A stretch of 64,000 nt of DNA from Candidatus Poribacteria bacterium (GTDB lineage: Bacteria > Poribacteria > WGA-4E > WGA-3G). The DNA is taken from NCBI GenBank assembly GCA_963665235.2, contig CAXXLX010000001.1, positions 608,001 to 672,000 of the forward strand, in the 5' to 3' direction. The notes beneath the pieces were generated by a model. That model saw only the letters and a program-made list of their open reading frames with translations, was not told the DNA's origin and did not search any database. The translations under genes were made by a program, and so were the position numbers. Below are positions 37,661 through 59,639 of the stretch, piece after piece (within the stretch, counting starts at the first letter, position 1; the number at the start of each line of letters is the position of its first letter).

Positions 37661-37769
37661 TTCAGGTCCCTGTGTTATGAAGACAATAGAATTCTCGTTG
37701 CAGATGCACATGTTCACTAAAATCAGTATACCAAATATACACCTAATTGTCAAGGATGGTGGAAAAGGG

Positions 37770-38012
37770 GGGTGTGTAAAGTTTCTGTACAAGTTAATCT
37801 ATTGATGCTTAGTATTTGGGAAACCAACGGTTCCCCACTCCTACAGCAAAACGCATCGCCCATCACAACCGTGCTCGTAGTAGGGAAACCATTTATTGCC
37901 CATCGCAGCCCTGATTCTAGGAGCAAAACCCATCGCCCATCACAACCCTATACGACACGACGGGCGATGAATCGCCCTACTACAAACGGGTGTACGAAAA
38001 CTTTACACACCC
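37770..38012. mobile_element. 243-bp MITE family D carrying a REP doublet
   Basis: TIR GGGTGTGTAAAGTTT/AAACTTTACACACCC; TSD AAAAGGG; internal GTAGTAGGGAAACC..GGGCGATGAATCGCCCTACTAC. Confidence 0.85.
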
Positions 38013-38148
38013 AAAAGGGGCAGGGCGTAAAGTTTCTGGCATAGAGGCACAAACTTTTGTTCTCTTTAGTCCCGTAGGGACGATATATTTATAGAAGCAC
38101 ACAACACACCCCAAAAATAGCCCCAGCGGGGCGGTATGTTTATAGAAT

Positions 38149-38579
38149 GTGATAGACCCCCAGCTAAAGCATGGGGGCTTCCGCAAAGTTATGCGAAAGC
38201 GTTCGTGCGATTAACGACCTTGTTTAGAAAACCTATAGCGGTTCTCCAGGGACAGAAGCCTACTGCAACAGACACTACCCTGACTGCGACACCGAAGTGT
38301 CCTTGTGAAATTTGTTTTGAGTCGTATTGTTCAAACGGGTTTCAGCATTACCTGTCTTTCCCTACTAACGACTGTCGTGCTACACTTTCTGACTAAGACA
38401 TTAGAGCTTTACACTATAGGAAGTCTAATCAGGAGGCGCGTAACTGCCCTCTATAGCAACCGTACACTCTAAATTTATTAGACGCTATTTTCACTAAAAG
38501 GTTTGGTGTGCAATCAAAGTTTTTAGCGGTGTCTACATCCCCCAGCTAAAGCTTGGGGGTTTTGACACCGAAGACAAAG
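38149..38579 (-). mobile_element. Non-autonomous IS200/IS605-type element with structured non-coding interior
   Basis: Two subterminal hairpins CCCCCA-GCTAAAGC-[AT]TGGGGG, similar to the left-end hairpin of the TnpB element; minus-strand end ...TCTATCAC; no credible gene inside. Confidence 0.75.
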
Positions 38580-38602
38580 ATAATCGCTTGCACAGCACGC
38601 TC

Positions 38603-38689
38603 CTACATAAGAGGGGAAGGTAGGCCCTTAACGATTTCCACCGTCTTGAGGCTCACGGTGATGACGCGGGCGATTAAGTCTACGATATT
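38603..38689 (-). pseudogene. C-terminal remnant of a Type ISP restriction-modification enzyme
   Basis: Translates IVDLIARVITVSLKTVEIVKGLP, matching the characteristic Type ISP C-terminal helix. Confidence 0.6.
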
Positions 38690-38764
38690 GAGAGTATAAT
38701 AACAGCTGTGATAGGACAAATCAAGGATTTTTTTAATTGTCATGCTAAAAGAAACATAATCAGC

Positions 38765-38880
38765 TCGTAGTAGGGCGATTCATCGCCCGTTGGTGATAGA
38801 AAAGGTTAGCGACGGGCAATAAATGGTTCCCCTACTACAATCCGCGCAATCCGCGCAATCCGCGACAATCCGCGATTCAG
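38765..38880. repeat. REP doublet plus AATCCGCG short repeats
   Basis: GTAGTAGGGCGATTCATCGCCC ... GGGCAATAAATGGTTCCCCTACTAC, then AATCCGCG x4. Confidence 0.75.
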
Positions 38881-38965
38881 ACGATATTAAAATCCGAAAA
38901 ATGTCGAAATATGGTAATATATGATAGCGTCCATTGTTTAACTTTTAGAGGCCGGAGGCATTAAA

Positions 38966-40501
38966 ATGACATTTTTCTCCCACGCTTTCACAAAATCATC
39001 CGTTTTGATAGGTGTGCTTATCGTTGCATATCTGCTGCCGATATGGTTGTTTCCCTATTTTCCAACACAGGATGGCGTGAGTCACGTCTATAACTCACAA
39101 ATTCTAACGGAGTACGGCAACCCGACCTATCAATTTCGCGACTATTACGATATTAATTGGTTTCCATTTCCGAATTGGCTATCGCATGCTTCGCTGGCAC
39201 TGCTGCTGTTCATCTTTCCGCCGTTAATCGCCGAGAAGGTTTTTCTGAGTCTATACGTTATCCTATTTCCGTTTGCCATCCGTTATTTCTTAAATGCTGT
39301 TCAGTCTGGCAGGGATGCACTGGTAATCCTAAGCTTCACGTTTATCTACAATTACCTGCTATTGATGGGTTTCTACAACTTTGCCGTGAGTGTCCCGCTG
39401 TTTTTCTTAGCACTGGGATACTGGTGGAGACATAGAGAGACGTTGACTACAACGCGTATTGTCCTGCTGAACCTGCTTATCATCGTCATCTATTTTGCGC
39501 ATCTCATCTCCTACGCGTTTGTTCTATTCTCTATTGCCCTGCTCACCGTGATTCATTTCAGACGCAACCTGAAGCGAATTCTTATCACCGGGTGTGCTGT
39601 TTTACCTGCTGCGTTATTGCTCATAGTTTACCTACCAACGTCTGACCTGCTAGCAGGCGGTCCACCTAAATTTGAGTTGGGACGTGTAGGTGAACTGTTA
39701 GAGAACGCCGTCGGCATGTATGTGTTAGTTGCCTATAACGAGAATCAGGTGTGGATTTCCTATGCGGTCTTTGCATGCCTGCTTTTCCTCAGCATCTGGA
39801 CATTTTGGCAGAACAGAAAACCATCAACAGAGTCGGTAGCAGGACAGGGGGCGTTTTTAATCCTGTTTGGCGTGCTTTTCCTACTCTATTTAATCCTGCC
39901 AGGCTCCATAGGTCCGGGCGGTTGGGTGAACGATAGGTTATTGATTTTGGCGGCCCTTTTAATATTCGCCTGTTTCCGGTTAAGCGAGCACATTAGGTGG
40001 CAGCAGGTGTTCACAGGATTGGTGACGCTGCTTGCCATTGTGAATGTCCTCTATATCGGCATTCTCTGCAAAACGCTGAACGCAGAATTACGTCAGTTTA
40101 ATGCCTTTGTAGACAGGGTTGAGAAGAACACCGTTATCTTACCGCTCCAATTTGAGGCGACTGGCGAATCGCTCAGAATAGGCATCTTTGTCAACGCGGC
40201 GAACTACTACTGTCTCGATAACGGGTGTATTAATCTCGGCAACTACGAGGTGCAGTTCGACTATTTTCCGATTCGCTTCAAAACGGATTTTGAGACACCG
40301 ATAGCTGAAAAGGAGTGGGTGCAAATTGTCCACTGGACACCGGAAGCAATTGACCTATGCAATTACGCGGACAACGTTGATTATTTGCTGCTTTGGGGGG
40401 TTCCGGAAGAAGAGAAGGTCGCTGCCGAAATTGCTGCGTGTTATACATTAATTGCTACGGAGGGACGACTAAAACTCTATGAGGGCAAGCGGGGATTGTA
40501 G
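38966..40501 (+). CDS. Polytopic membrane protein, probable GT-C fold glycosyltransferase
   Basis: YFPTQDG.SH, LLMGFYNF, YFAH, DRLL; ~12 TM segments and a periplasmic C-terminus. Confidence 0.7.
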   Translation: MTFFSHAFTKSSVLIGVLIVAYLLPIWLFPYFPTQDGVSHVYNSQILTEYGNPTYQFRDYYDINWFPFPNWLSHASLALLLFIFPPLIAEKVFLSLYVILFPFAIRYFLNAVQSGRDALVILSFTFIYNYLLLMGFYNFAVSVPLFFLALGYWWRHRETLTTTRIVLLNLLIIVIYFAHLISYAFVLFSIALLTVIHFRRNLKRILITGCAVLPAALLLIVYLPTSDLLAGGPPKFELGRVGELLENAVGMYVLVAYNENQVWISYAVFACLLFLSIWTFWQNRKPSTESVAGQGAFLILFGVLFLLYLILPGSIGPGGWVNDRLLILAALLIFACFRLSEHIRWQQVFTGLVTLLAIVNVLYIGILCKTLNAELRQFNAFVDRVEKNTVILPLQFEATGESLRIGIFVNAANYYCLDNGCINLGNYEVQFDYFPIRFKTDFETPIAEKEWVQIVHWTPEAIDLCNYADNVDYLLLWGVPEEEKVAAEIAACYTLIATEGRLKLYEGKRGL

Positions 40502-58031: not shown

Positions 58032-58062
58032 GATGTTTCTCCGGGCTAATGTCTTGTGTTAG

Positions 58063-59331
58063 TCAACTACCCAAGCCTAAAGACTTGTGCCTATTAAGAG
58101 CATCGAACAGCGTTAACTGTACCGCGTCTATTAAACCTTTGTCTCGTGCTTCGTTCTTGTTTCTCGCTTCATAGAGGGTGGTAACCCACCGCTCTCCACG
58201 AAAGGCAGCAGCTGCCTTAAAAAGAATGTTTAATGCAGCGTTGTGGTCTCGGTCTAAAGACGTGCCACAGAAACTGCAATTAAAGGTCCGTATCGCCAGA
58301 GAGAGTTTCTTTGGCGATTTCTGACCGCAACTTGAGCAGATTTGCGAAGTGTTTTTGGGCTCCACTTGGTGGAAATGGAAACCGTCTCTTTCGGAAACCA
58401 TGTTTCCGCACCACTCAAAGAAGGTTGCCCAAGACGCATCGCTAATACTCTTGCTGAGGTGTTTGTTCTTGACCATGTTAGAAACGCTTAAGTCCTCTGC
58501 CACTAATACACTGTTTTTCTTGTGGTGGTAGAGTTTGTAGATGAGTTGGTTTCCAATAAAGTCTTTGCGTCTGTTCGCGGTTCGCTCGTGGTGTAATGAT
58601 AGTTTGTGTTGTTGTTTCTTTGAACGGTTGCTACCTTTTTTCTTTCGAGAAAGATCTTTGGAATGTTTTTGGGTTAAACCTTCTGCTTGACGATACCAGC
58701 GTGGGTTGTTCTCTTTTTCGCCTCCGGATGTTGTCAGATAATGCATCGTTCCCATATCAACAGCTATAGCAGTTGTTGGGTCAACCTTCGGTGTGTCCGT
58801 GAGTTCACAGGTAATATGAGCATACCAGCCACTTGCTTTTTTAACGAGCGTAACGCCTTTGGGAGCCCCTTGAAGCGGGCGGTGCATATAGATTTTGACT
58901 TCGCCAAGTTTGGGGACTTTCAAACGGTCGTGTTTCCAGGCTGTTTCGCGTATCGGATGCTCGCGAATACCTTTGGACTTGCGGAGTTTCCACGACATAG
59001 ACTTTATGCTTTTTCTGTGTCTTGGATACCCTTTTTTCGCAGTGCCTTCTTCGCAGCGTCTATAGAAACCGGCGAAGGCTTTATCGTTACGTTCCAAAGC
59101 ACAGACTTGCATATCTTGTGGGACTTCGCGAAAGTCATCGTATTTTTTACGCGCAACCGTCAACTTCCGTTGTTGGTCGTAGCAAGAAACTTTTTCGCGT
59201 GCCGTTTCCCAAGCGACCTTGCGATCATGGCGAGCAGAGTTCTGAAGTTCACACAAATGGGCAAGCCAGTCTAATAATGTTGTTTCCTGTGTTTTCGTAG
59301 GATACACAGGGTATCTGAAAGTTAGTTTCAT
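58063..59331 (-). CDS. tnpB: RNA-guided endonuclease TnpB
   Basis: HTH (FRYPVYPTK.Q), RuvC-I AVDMG, RuvC-II AEDL, Zn finger CSSC..CSFC, RuvC-III DRDHNAALNI. Confidence 0.93.
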   Translation of the reverse strand: MKLTFRYPVYPTKTQETTLLDWLAHLCELQNSARHDRKVAWETAREKVSCYDQQRKLTVARKKYDDFREVPQDMQVCALERNDKAFAGFYRRCEEGTAKKGYPRHRKSIKSMSWKLRKSKGIREHPIRETAWKHDRLKVPKLGEVKIYMHRPLQGAPKGVTLVKKASGWYAHITCELTDTPKVDPTTAIAVDMGTMHYLTTSGGEKENNPRWYRQAEGLTQKHSKDLSRKKKGSNRSKKQQHKLSLHHERTANRRKDFIGNQLIYKLYHHKKNSVLVAEDLSVSNMVKNKHLSKSISDASWATFFEWCGNMVSERDGFHFHQVEPKNTSQICSSCGQKSPKKLSLAIRTFNCSFCGTSLDRDHNAALNILFKAAAAFRGERWVTTLYEARNKNEARDKGLIDAVQLTLFDALNRHKSLGLGS

Positions 59332-59424
59332 GGTTTTCTTTGCCTTCGTTTATCCCCTTCTTAGTGGGAAGCGGACACATTACCAAGCGGTAACGCTAAG
59401 AATGTCCGCCAACTTGATACTCTA

Positions 59425-59453
59425 ATTATACCATGTTTTATGGTCAATGTCAA
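59425..59453 (-). promoter_or_regulatory. Consensus sigma70 promoter driving tnpB
   Basis: TTGACA-17 nt-TATAAT on the minus strand inside the element. Confidence 0.8.
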
Positions 59454-59639
59454 GTTAAAAACGATGTACCAACGGGGTTAGCGGGCTTTCCTCCCAAAGC
59501 TAAAGCATTGGGAAACCTCTCGCCCGAATGCCCGTGATTTTTTTACAATTGCATTGTGTTTGCGAATTTCTTGTTTAAATAGAATACCATAAAATCGCGT
59601 CGAAATCAACGTTTTTTTCCATCGCAATCCAAAATAAAT

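What the first reader, a model, noticed from the sequence alone, without database searches (positions are those of the whole stretch)
38149..38579. IS200/IS605-ended element that carries a structured non-coding RNA instead of a gene
Seen: two nearly identical subterminal hairpins (CCCCCA-GCTAAAGC-[A/T]TGGGGG), similar to the left-end hairpin of the TnpB element at ~59.5 kb, a minus-strand right end finishing in TCAC, and TTAT before the left end. The ~330-nt interior has no credible gene but is rich in minus-strand helices: CTATAG...CTATAG, GACAC-TTCG-GTGTC (a C-UUCG-G tetraloop), GAGAACC..GGTTTTC and CTTTCGCA..TGCGGAAG. Known: IS200/IS605 elements carry omegaRNAs and HEARO-type RNAs, and their PATE derivatives are usually just the two ends. 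Inference: this may be a mobile ncRNA cassette, such as a trans-acting guide scaffold for a TnpB/IscB-like nuclease or a new large ncRNA class.
Basis: partly seen in the sequence, partly recalled or inferred. Interest (0 to 1): 0.8.

Follow-up and report, generated by a model that had tools for sequence, protein, structure and literature searches.

The report
Gene-less mini-transposon carrying a guide RNA
This 431-base stretch is a protein-less miniature IS200/IS605 transposon of a sponge-symbiont (Poribacteria) genome that carries a folded RNA gene, most likely a guide RNA borrowed by a TnpB nuclease encoded elsewhere, a known kind of element that here has an extra, unexplained folded front half.

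Summary
Window 38149-38579 (top strand = minus strand) is a 431-bp IS200/IS605-type mini-element. It runs TTAT | left-end hairpin, promoter region, ~324-nt structured RNA, right-end hairpin, TCAC |. The genome holds 6 copies. Three 1.8-kb tnpA-tnpB elements there share its two ~60-nt ends.

No ORF is conserved, and nothing matches TnpA or TnpB protein. Both halves of the RNA covary strongly (about 95% of cells paired; 126 and 77 compensatory cells; 0 of 500 shuffles as high).

A covariance model of the 3' half hits 26 sites in the genome. All are full length, and their printed right-end tails are one of two types (..TCTATCAC or ..GAGTATGTC). Thirteen lie at the 3' end of tnpB genes, where guide (omega) RNAs are encoded.

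The 5' half (~160 nt, probable pseudoknot) occurs only in gene-less elements. It is in 58 of 112 genomes of one poribacterial family and in 0 of 51 from other families.

Best reading: a stand-alone, mobilised TnpB omegaRNA used in trans. This kind is already published (Altae-Tran 2021/2023; Meers 2023). The conserved 5' domain is the new part. One of its hairpins recurs inside tnpB itself.

Transcription is not shown, and the window genome's own copies have a poor promoter.

The parts
38580..38583 (-). TTAT target site next to the left end. It is not part of the element. It is the expected TAM of the cognate TnpB.
   Evidence: TTAT precedes the left end in 4 of 5 own copies and 16 of 17 copies with relatives. 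The tnpA-tnpB elements with the same ends also follow TTAT. The TAM role is inferred from published IS200/IS605 biology (PMC10055086, passages).
38527..38570 (-). Left-end subterminal hairpin: CGGTGTC-AAAA-CCCCC..GGGGG-ATGTA-GACACCG, with the inner hairpin at 38539-38559.
   Evidence: Compensatory changes occur in the other copies: CCCAAT..TTTGGG, and outer stem CCGCGAC/GTCGCGG. About 54-60 nt are shared with the 1.8-kb tnpA-tnpB elements.
38473..38526 (-). Promoter region between the left end and the RNA. In this copy there is only a weak -10-like TCTAAT (38477-38482).
   Evidence: 35 of 48 family members have at least 10 of 12 matches to TTGACA-N16-18-TATAAT at this fixed place. The 4 own-genome copies scored reach only 8 of 12, no better than shuffles. 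The tool scan finds no promoter here.
38314..38472 (-). 5' domain of the RNA (~160 nt). It has helix P1 (38451-38457 with 38413-38419), a probable pseudoknot, P3, and the P4-P5 hairpin GGGAAAGACAGGUAAUGCUGAAACCC.
   Evidence: Model R2 matches here at E 4e-26. Covariation: 14 of 19 pairs compensated, 95.8% of cells paired against 27-47% when slid, 77 compensatory cells against 20 in shuffles. Pseudoknot pairing is seen with different sequences in most of the 25 members.
38149..38311 (-). 3' domain of the RNA, the omegaRNA-like scaffold. It comprises S1 (38288-38301), S2 with the GGGUAG loop (38268-38287), the long-range S3 plus variable hairpin (38206-38267), S4 (38177-38200), the right-end hairpin (38157-38177) and the terminal TCTATCAC (38149-38156).
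   Evidence: Model R1 matches here at E 1.3e-30. Covariation: 19 of 29 pairs compensated, 95.5% paired, 126 compensatory cells against 38.9 in shuffles. R1 also matches 13 tnpB 3' ends at full length.
38133..38148 (-). Predicted guide portion: the 16 nt of flank after the right end, ATTCTATAAACATACC. It would be transcribed by read-through.
   Evidence: Inferred from the position rule of TnpB omegaRNAs, scaffold ending at the right end and guide taken from the flank (PMC10055086, PMC10691335; passages). The flank differs in every copy. 58 other 12-nt seed matches exist in the genome and none follows TTAT.

Best explanation
Window 38149-38579 (minus strand) is a non-autonomous, protein-less IS200/IS605 mini-element (PATE type). 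Its cargo is a stand-alone guide-RNA (omegaRNA) gene of the TnpB type.

Shown:
- It has the ends, TTAT target and TCAC terminus of the resident tnpA-tnpB elements.
- It is multi-copy and has no conserved ORF.
- It encodes a ~324-nt RNA whose helices covary.
- The 3' half of that RNA (~160 nt, ending exactly at the right end) matches the region at the 3' end of tnpB genes.

Inferred:
- The Y1 transposase TnpA of the full-length elements moves it in trans as single-stranded DNA.
- The RNA is transcribed from the promoter behind the left end, through the right end and into the flank. Each copy therefore carries a different 3' guide.
- TnpB made by the full-length elements binds the scaffold. It cuts the TTAT-flanked empty site left after excision, so that recombination restores the element. 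The mini-element would thus parasitise both TnpA and TnpB.

The ~160-nt 5' domain is an addition found only in gene-less elements and its role is unknown. My guess is that it helps stabilise, fold or load the RNA. Its P4-P5 hairpin resembles a hairpin inside the tnpB coding region.
For: Copies and ends:
- The genome has 5 near-identical copies and a 6th divergent one, all at unrelated sites.
- The ends are shared with three 1.8-kb elements encoding a Y1 transposase (PF01797, E 2e-34) and a 403-aa TnpB (PF07282, PF01385).

No coding capacity:
- tblastn with TnpA and TnpB against 30 family members finds nothing below E = 1.
- No ORF is conserved in place or length.

Structure:
- 28 of 39, 19 of 29 and 14 of 19 predicted pairs carry compensatory changes.
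- Controls are clean, with 0 of 500 shuffles reaching the observed covariation in either half.
- G-U pairs are fixed in 26-27 of 27 sequences at two positions. The fold is therefore specific to the top strand.

omegaRNA link:
- Model R1 was built only from gene-less elements. It gives 26 full-length hits in the genome. Their printed right-end tails are of two types, ..TCTATCAC or ..GAGTATGTC.
- 13 of the 26 overlap the 3' end of a 332-432-aa tnpB-type ORF.
- The profile search extends past the shared ~60-nt end into S2.
- With S4 and the right end removed, 9 of 13 tnpB 3' regions still give a collinear hit at the same place. 3 of these 13 score above the best of 520 shuffles.

Promoter and partner:
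- 35 of 48 elements have at least 10 of 12 matches to the sigma-70 consensus at one fixed position.
- 57 of 58 genomes with the 5' domain also hold a close TnpB relative at E <= 1e-60.

Precedent:
- Stand-alone mobilised omegaRNAs have been reported to work in trans, and PATEs 'often encode' omegaRNAs (PMC10691335, PMC10055086; passages read).
Against: - No transcript is shown. The only RNA-library data are assembled contigs of relatives' copies, without strand or ends, and they may be DNA.
- The window genome's own copies have a poor promoter: 8 of 12, with C at position 2 of the -10 box, no better than shuffles. They may be weakly expressed or decaying.
- Similarity to tnpB 3' ends is strong only over the last ~60 nt (S4 plus the right-end hairpin), which TnpA also needs at the DNA level. 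The S1-S3 profile alone finds no tnpB end genome-wide at E <= 1. S1 is missing from the tnpB versions.
- The omegaRNA of these particular TnpBs has never been mapped.
- The 5' half of the RNA has no counterpart in tnpB-encoded RNAs, so a guide role does not explain it.
- One genome (G015) has the RNA but no TnpB at the threshold used.
Confidence: 0.7

Rival explanations
1. The RNA is functional but is not a guide. On this view the ~60-nt right-end module is kept only because TnpA needs it for transposition. The rest, above all the 5' domain, would do something else: for example a decoy or regulator that titrates TnpB or TnpA, an RNA acting on tnpB mRNA through the shared hairpin, or an outward-reading transcript that affects neighbouring genes.
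For: - The 5' domain is as strongly constrained as the 3' domain and is absent from tnpB-encoded RNAs.
- Similarity to tnpB 3' ends beyond S4 and the right end is weak.
- The same 5' domain is combined with three different right-end types, as if it were the selected cargo.
- Its P4-P5 hairpin matches a hairpin inside tnpB, with 17 of 18 core bases identical.
Against: - S2 and S3 lie 90-165 nt from the end, beyond any usual TnpA substrate. They covary and are collinear with the tnpB 3' regions.
- The RNA always ends at the right end, with no terminator before it.
- Stand-alone omegaRNAs are reported to work in trans (PMC10691335, passage).
Confidence: 0.17
2. The element is an inert deletion remnant of a tnpA-tnpB element with no RNA function. 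Its conservation would reflect only recent copying.
For: - The 5 own-genome copies are 97-100% identical in the interior.
- Their promoter is degenerate.
- Core deletions that turn IS605 elements into PATEs are documented (PMC3119063, passages).
Against: - The family spans three genera, with 70-88% identity.
- There are many compensatory double changes in at least 10 helices.
- A consensus promoter is kept at a fixed place in 35 of 48 members.
- There is no trace of tnpB or tnpA coding sequence.
Confidence: 0.05
3. It is a mini-IStron or other self-processing ribozyme, with the 5' pseudoknotted domain as a catalytic core that splices or cleaves the element out of host transcripts.
For: - IStron-derived PATEs without ORFs exist (bioRxiv 10.1101/2023.11.20.567912, figure-legend passage).
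- The 5' domain has a probable pseudoknot.
Against: - No Rfam family matches: group I introns, known small ribozymes, HEARO and the IS605-orfB motifs give nothing at gathering score on the window, or at E <= 10 on 37700-39000.
- The element has its own promoter in most members, which an intron does not need.
Confidence: 0.03

Closest known systems
Stand-alone (effector-less) mobilised omegaRNAs of OMEGA systems (Altae-Tran et al. 2021, as summarised in PMC10691335; passage read)
   Same: The RNA scaffold lies within transposon ends, with no nuclease or transposase gene. It sits in the same genome as effector-bearing copies, and the guide is taken from the flank. A trans use by a compatible effector has been reported.
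   Different: This RNA is about twice the length of its omegaRNA-like part. It carries a conserved, covarying ~160-nt 5' domain that the tnpB-encoded versions lack. The host is a poribacterium. Activity was not tested.
PATE-like minimal IS200/IS605 elements of Geobacillus stearothermophilus that 'often encode omegaRNAs' (Meers et al. 2023 preprint, PMC10055086; passages read)
   Same: These elements are protein-less and share left and right ends with TnpA- and TnpB-bearing elements of the same genome. They are proposed to depend on TnpA and TnpB in trans.
   Different: Those are described as minimal elements. I could not see their supplementary figures, so I cannot say whether any has an extra 5' domain or its own promoter.
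Haloarchaeal PATEs and the PATE-derived ncRNA VNG_R0052 (PMC3119063; PMC4615843; passages read)
   Same: They are IS605-derived and gene-less, with near-terminal palindromes. At least one is transcribed. The RE-like loop motif explains the weak HgcC hit on the left-end hairpin here.
   Different: Many of those are fused ends of 52-100 bp. This one carries a 324-nt structured RNA.
tnpB-encoded omegaRNA of the resident IS200/IS605 elements (types ending ..GGTCTATCAC and ..GAGTATGTC)
   Same: S2 with the GGGUAG/GGGCAU loop, the outer S3 pairs, S4, the right-end hairpin and the terminus are shared.
   Different: In the gene the scaffold overlaps the last ~100 codons, with the stop codon 15-44 nt before the end. 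It lacks S1 and the whole 5' domain.

Membership tests
Non-autonomous IS200/IS605 element (PATE) | Subterminal imperfect palindromes at both ends and no terminal inverted repeats | tested here: met
   Hairpins lie at 38157-38177 and 38539-38559. Both arms covary between copies.
Non-autonomous IS200/IS605 element (PATE) | Insertion 3' of a fixed tetranucleotide, without target duplication | tested here: met
   TTAT precedes the left end in 16 of 17 copies. The flanks after TCAC are unrelated and do not repeat TTAT.
Non-autonomous IS200/IS605 element (PATE) | Ends shared with an element that encodes a Y1 (HUH) transposase in the same genome | tested here: met
   Three 1.8-kb elements have the same ~60-nt ends. 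They encode a Y1_Tnp protein (E 2e-34) and a TnpB.
Non-autonomous IS200/IS605 element (PATE) | No protein-coding gene | tested here: met
Non-autonomous IS200/IS605 element (PATE) | Demonstrated mobility (an empty site in a relative, or excision) | not tested
   There is only indirect evidence: 6 copies at unrelated sites.
TnpB omegaRNA (stand-alone form) | Scaffold ends at the transposon right end, so that the flank supplies the guide | tested here: met
   All 26 R1 hits span the full model, which runs to the last base of the element. Their printed right-end tails are ..TCTATCAC or ..GAGTATGTC.
TnpB omegaRNA (stand-alone form) | Homology to the 3' end (omegaRNA region) of a tnpB gene | tested here: met
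   R1 hits 13 tnpB 3' ends (E 2e-9 to 5e-4 genome-wide). The match is strong over S4 and the right end. Over S2-S3 it is weak but collinear.
TnpB omegaRNA (stand-alone form) | Conserved RNA secondary structure | tested here: met
   19 of 29 pairs compensated, with 0 of 500 shuffles as high.
TnpB omegaRNA (stand-alone form) | Transcribed towards and through the right end | tested here: inconclusive
   A consensus promoter is present in 35 of 48 members but not in the window genome's copies. RNA-library contigs give no strand or ends.
TnpB omegaRNA (stand-alone form) | Binds TnpB and directs TAM-dependent DNA cleavage | not testable with these tools
   This needs RIP-seq and interference assays.
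   There are 0 matches at gathering score on the whole window. At E <= 10 on 37700-39000 there are only chance-level hits (HgcC, Acido-Lenti-1, ZFAT-AS1_3, RsmY).

The most novel reading that the evidence does not exclude
The conserved ~160-nt 5' domain could be a new functional RNA module grafted onto a TnpB guide scaffold. It includes a hairpin that is also embedded, with synonymous-site covariation, in the middle of tnpB, just upstream of the RuvC-I motif. On this reading the hairpin is a TnpB-recognised or tnpB-mRNA-interacting signal. The mini-element would then be a 'hyperparasitic' guide RNA that loads or competes for TnpB better than the nuclease's own transcript, or that regulates tnpB. 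It would also mean that tnpB mRNAs carry a functional mid-gene RNA element that has not been described.
Probability: 0.25. Interest if true: 0.7.

Novelty: new variant of a known kind. Interest (0 to 1): 0.45.

Why it matters
Stand-alone omegaRNAs are known, but their biological role is called unknown in the literature I read (PMC10691335). This family gives a large natural data set for that question: more than 200 copies in 58 genomes, three right-end types, and a strong promoter in most members. It therefore offers a well-defined test case for how a guide RNA survives and works without its nuclease gene.

The added 5' domain, and its hairpin shared with the tnpB coding region, point to a possible extra layer in TnpB-RNA biology, such as loading, stability or competition with the cis-encoded guide. 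That layer is directly testable. If the 5' domain turns out to be only a stabilising leader, the finding is an ordinary, well-documented example of a known kind in a little-studied phylum.

Tried and rejected
- **Rfam:** nothing at gathering score on the window. Only chance-level hits in E-value mode.
- **tRNA/tmRNA scan:** none.
- **blastn of the element against phage and plasmid collections:** no match.
- **Decayed coding sequence:** tblastn with TnpA and TnpB found nothing below E = 1. A pairwise nucleotide alignment of the interior to the tnpB 3' region scored no better than shuffles, 37 against 35.8 +/- 7.
- **RNA evidence:** the run search gave only small-share RNA runs. Laying 4 of them (85% likeness) placed contigs of relatives' copies on parts of the element. 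For example, a 385-nt contig of X4 covers 38282-38574 with 24 differences, and X1 and X3 contigs cover about 38376-38574. These are assembled contigs from RNA libraries of 2 studies, without strand, ends or proof of transcription, so I draw no conclusion from them or from the uncovered parts.
- **5' domain in tnpB loci:** with filters off there was no full-length hit better than E 2.7 in the four tnpB loci. A profile search of 22 tnpB genes found only the 18-nt hairpin, at scores not above shuffles.
- **My first guess of a cyanobacterial host was wrong.** All 53 pattern matches in the species-genome collection are Candidatus Poribacteria MAGs.
- **Earlier notes of this scan:** by place and by sequence, nothing for this genome.
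- **Not attempted:** an empty-site comparison, which I judged unlikely to work across genera, and a complex prediction, because the tool takes proteins only.

Full report
**1. The observation**

- The hairpin CCCCCAGCTAAAGC[A/T]TGGGGG occurs twice in the 64-kb window, at 38157-38177 and 38539-38559. Shuffles give 0.01 matches.
- A search of the window's own genome (5.31 Mb, 4 contigs) found four more full copies at 88-95% identity. A profile search found a sixth, divergent copy.
- Aligning the copies with their flanks fixes the ends to the base. On the minus strand the element begins right after TTAT (38580-38583) and ends in TCTATCAC at 38149.
- All 5 aligned copies end in TCAC and then diverge. 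4 of 5 follow TTAT and one follows TTTT.
- With relatives included, 16 of 17 copies follow TTAT.

**2. The kind of element**

Only the two ends, about 60 nt each, recur elsewhere in the genome.
- Three such pairs of ends bound 1.8-kb elements. These carry a 134-137-aa Y1 transposase (PF01797, E 2e-34 for the one copy scanned) and a 403-432-aa TnpB ORF. The 403-aa one carries PF07282 and PF01385. All follow TTAT and end in TCTATCAC.
- The element is therefore a non-autonomous relative of a canonical IS200/IS605 insertion sequence.
- It has no ORF of 30 aa or more on the top strand.
- Its two bottom-strand ORFs have no Pfam match.
- No ORF is conserved in place or length over 30 family members.
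- tblastn with the resident TnpA and TnpB finds nothing below E = 1. The interior is thus not recognisable decayed coding sequence.
Its ORF is a 422-aa TnpB at 58063-59331, minus strand.

**3. Relatives and host**

BLAST-level searches found the interior in related genomes.
- A pattern from the RNA core matched 53 stretches in a collection of one genome per species. All are labelled Candidatus Poribacteria, the sponge symbionts. My first guess of a cyanobacterium was wrong.
- A covariance model of the 5' half (R2) matches 58 of 112 genomes of the host's family. By genus: g3 19 of 40, g6 38 of 65, the window's own genus 1 of 1, and three other genera 0 of 6. There are up to 14 copies per genome.
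- R2 matches 0 of 51 genomes from eight other families of the phylum.
- Nothing was found in the phage or plasmid collections.

**4. The RNA**

From the promoter region to the right end the family shares a ~310-350-nt unit.

| Alignment | Sequences | Predicted pairs with a compensatory double change |
|---|---|---|
| Whole RNA | 29 | 28 of 39 |
| 3' half | 27 | 19 of 29 |
| 5' half | 25 | 14 of 19 |

Explicit counts with controls:

| Measure | 3' half | 5' half |
|---|---|---|
| Cells forming a standard pair | 95.5% | 95.8% |
| Same, with partners slid 1-3 columns | 32-54% | 27-47% |
| Compensatory cells, observed | 126 | 77 |
| Compensatory cells, shuffled mean | 38.9 | 20.0 |
| Shuffles reaching the observed value | 0 of 500 | 0 of 500 |

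- Two G-U pairs are fixed in 26-27 of 27 sequences. On the other strand these would be C-A, so the fold belongs to the top strand.
- The loop of helix P1 also pairs with a segment downstream of P1, using different sequences in different subfamilies. Examples are UGAUUAGAC/GUCUUAGUCA, ACAAGUGAGA/CUCUAUACUUGU and GCAGU/ACUGC. This points to a pseudoknot. Support is moderate, because the single-sequence z-scores are weak and the alignment there is poor.

**5. Link to TnpB guide RNAs**

Model R1 covers the 3' half: 153 positions and 29 pairs, built only from gene-less elements.
- It gives 26 hits in the window's genome. Each spans the whole model. Their printed right-end tails are of two types..TCTATCAC or ..GAGTATGTC.
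- Six hits are the copies of this element.
- Seven are other gene-less short elements.
- Thirteen overlap the 3' end of a tnpB-type ORF:
  - four of the type ending ..GGTCTATCAC (403-432 aa, stop codon 40-44 nt before the end);
  - eight of a second type ending ..GAGTATGTC (400 aa, stop 15 nt before the end);
  - one with a shortened ORF.
- The 3' end of tnpB is where TnpB omegaRNAs are encoded in the systems studied so far (PMC10055086 and PMC10691335, passages read).

How far the match reaches matters.
- The last ~60 nt (S4 plus the right-end hairpin) are 85-95% identical. TnpA also needs them at the DNA level, so they prove little.
- The profile alignment runs on into S2 (GGGUAG-loop hairpin) and the motif UUG..UAGG..GUAAGAC.
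- With S4 and the right end cut off, the S1-S3 profile finds no tnpB end genome-wide at E <= 1.
- In a targeted test on the 198 nt upstream of S4 in 13 tnpB ends, 9 of 13 give a hit at the same model and target positions. Scores are 2.0-8.2 bits. In 520 shuffled sequences the 95th percentile is 0 and the maximum 4.2, and 3 of the 13 exceed that maximum.
- S1 is absent from the tnpB versions.

I read this as real but weak homology of S2-S3 and clear homology of S4 and the right end.

**6. Promoter and expression**

- In 35 of 48 family members a match of at least 10 of 12 to TTGACA-N16-18-TATAAT sits at one fixed place. Its -10 box ends about 4 nt before the first conserved RNA base.
- The four own-genome copies scored reach only 8 of 12, no better than shuffles. 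Their -10 box reads TCTAAT.
- The family as a whole therefore looks like a promoter-driven RNA gene, but the window's own copies may be poorly expressed.
- Public RNA data did not settle this. Only assembled contigs of relatives' copies lay on the element.

**7. The 5' domain**

- R2 hits only the six copies in the own genome at E <= 1.
- With filters off on four tnpB loci, no full-length hit is better than E 2.7.
- In 20 divergent hits fetched from other genomes, R1 abuts R2 in 16. One locus is cut by a contig end. Three carry a third, more divergent 3' domain and right end (..GGGTACTATGAC) with the same S1/S2 layout.
- The 5' domain is thus always the front half of one RNA. It is combined with three right-end types and is not seen with a tnpB gene in what I examined.

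One piece of the 5' domain does have a counterpart in tnpB.
- The P4-P5 hairpin here is GGG-AAAGAC-AGG-UAAUG-CUG-AAA-CCC.
- All four type-I tnpB genes hold CCC-AAGAC-AGG-UAAAG-CUG-AA-GGG about 706-710 nt before the right end. This stretch codes PKTGKAEG, just upstream of the RuvC-I motif GFD[MF]G. 17 of 18 core bases are identical, and the closing stem has its strands swapped.
- The second tnpB type has its own version at the same place. The second family of short elements matches that version, again with swapped closing strands.
- In 23 tnpB genes (21 distinct rows), the third bases of the Thr and Ala codons always pair: AU 9, GU 5, UG 5, CG 1, GC 1.
- This is one covarying pair only. Profile searches do not score the 18-nt match above shuffles. 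I therefore report it as a lead, not a result.

**8. Mechanism**

Shown: the anatomy, copy number, shared ends, covarying fold, match to tnpB 3' ends, and the promoter in most members.

Inferred from published IS200/IS605 and TnpB biology:
- TnpA of the full elements moves the mini-element in trans.
- The RNA reads through the right end, so each copy has its own guide. In the window copy this is ATTCTATAAACATACC, at 38133-38148.
- TnpB from the full elements uses the RNA to cut the TTAT-flanked empty site after excision.

The guide of the window copy lies in a dispersed repeat. It has 58 other 12-nt seed matches in the genome, and none follows TTAT. A TAM-dependent nuclease would therefore not attack the genome.

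57 of 58 genomes with the RNA also hold a close TnpB relative, against 41 of 54 genomes without it. The genomes are related to one another, so this is not a statistical test.

**9. What is known**

- Stand-alone, mobilised omegaRNAs lacking effector and transposase, reported to work in trans, are stated in PMC10691335 (passage read; it cites Altae-Tran 2021, which I did not see).
- Meers et al. write that PATEs 'often encode' omegaRNAs that TnpB must act on in trans (PMC10055086, passages read).
- PATEs were defined in Haloquadratum (PMC3119063, passages). A PATE-derived RNA is expressed in Halobacterium (PMC4615843, passages).
- A full-text search for Poribacteria together with TnpB found no paper.
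- I found no description of a stand-alone omegaRNA with a conserved extra 5' domain in the passages read.

**10. Verdict**

It is a new variant of a known kind. The element type and its likely use are already published. The conserved 5' domain, the tnpB-internal hairpin link and the poribacterial setting are new as far as I could see. Interest is moderate.

Noticed in passing
L009:2177-2220 (minus), L007:2175-2218 (minus), L010:842-885, L014:846-889: A small hairpin lies inside the tnpB coding region, just upstream of the RuvC-I motif (it codes PKTGKAEG). Its core shares 17 of 18 bases with the P4-P5 hairpin of the mini-element's 5' domain. In 21 distinct tnpB genes the two synonymous third bases always pair, with 5 pair types. 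The second tnpB type has its own version at the same place.
   Followed up: partly
G000:C1:1772415-1772888 and 8 more sites: There is a second family of ~475-bp gene-less elements with the other right-end type (..GAGTATGTC). They have an R1-type 3' domain and a related hairpin, GGUAUCC-AAAAGACGGGUCAUGCUGCAU-UGGAUACC. There are 9 copies in the genome.
   Followed up: partly
L008:1492-2119 (G000:C1:469802-470419, minus): A 618-bp gene-less element has the same left and right ends and a TTGAC..TATTAT-type promoter but a different interior. R1 matches its 3' part at 51 bits.
   Followed up: partly
window 38040-38148: The element sits next to copies of a ~50-bp repeat with short GC hairpins (GTCCCGTAGGGAC, GCCCCAGCGGGGC). 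Most of the 94 own-genome matches are to this repeat. Some form tandem arrays with periods of ~50 or ~101 bp, for example G000:C1:957841-958376.
   Followed up: no
window 58040-59560 (minus): This is a tnpB-only IS200/IS605 element. It has a left-end hairpin CCCAATGCTTTAGCTTTGGG (59493-59512), a TTGACA-17-TATAAT promoter and a 422-aa TnpB (58063-59331). Its right end is of yet another type (..GGGTAGTTGAC). The left-end hairpin is identical to that of mini-element copy G000:C1:3756618-3757079.
   Followed up: partly
L050:1509-1856: One own-genome copy (G000:C1:3756623-3757078) carries a 25-nt insertion forming a GGGGTGAAACCCC hairpin inside the 5' domain, at the pseudoknot region. R2 still matches at E 1e-20.
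   Followed up: no
window 38838-38875 and 37955-37975 / 38770-38795: There are short tandem heptamers (AATCCGCGC-type) and copies of a GGGCGATGAATCGCCC palindrome around the element.
   Followed up: no
L131:1150-1800, L132:1150-1820, L139:1150-1800 (minus): A third right-end type (..GGGTACTATGAC) is joined to the same 5' domain and promoter. The RNA cargo is therefore combined with at least three kinds of transposon ends.
   Followed up: partly
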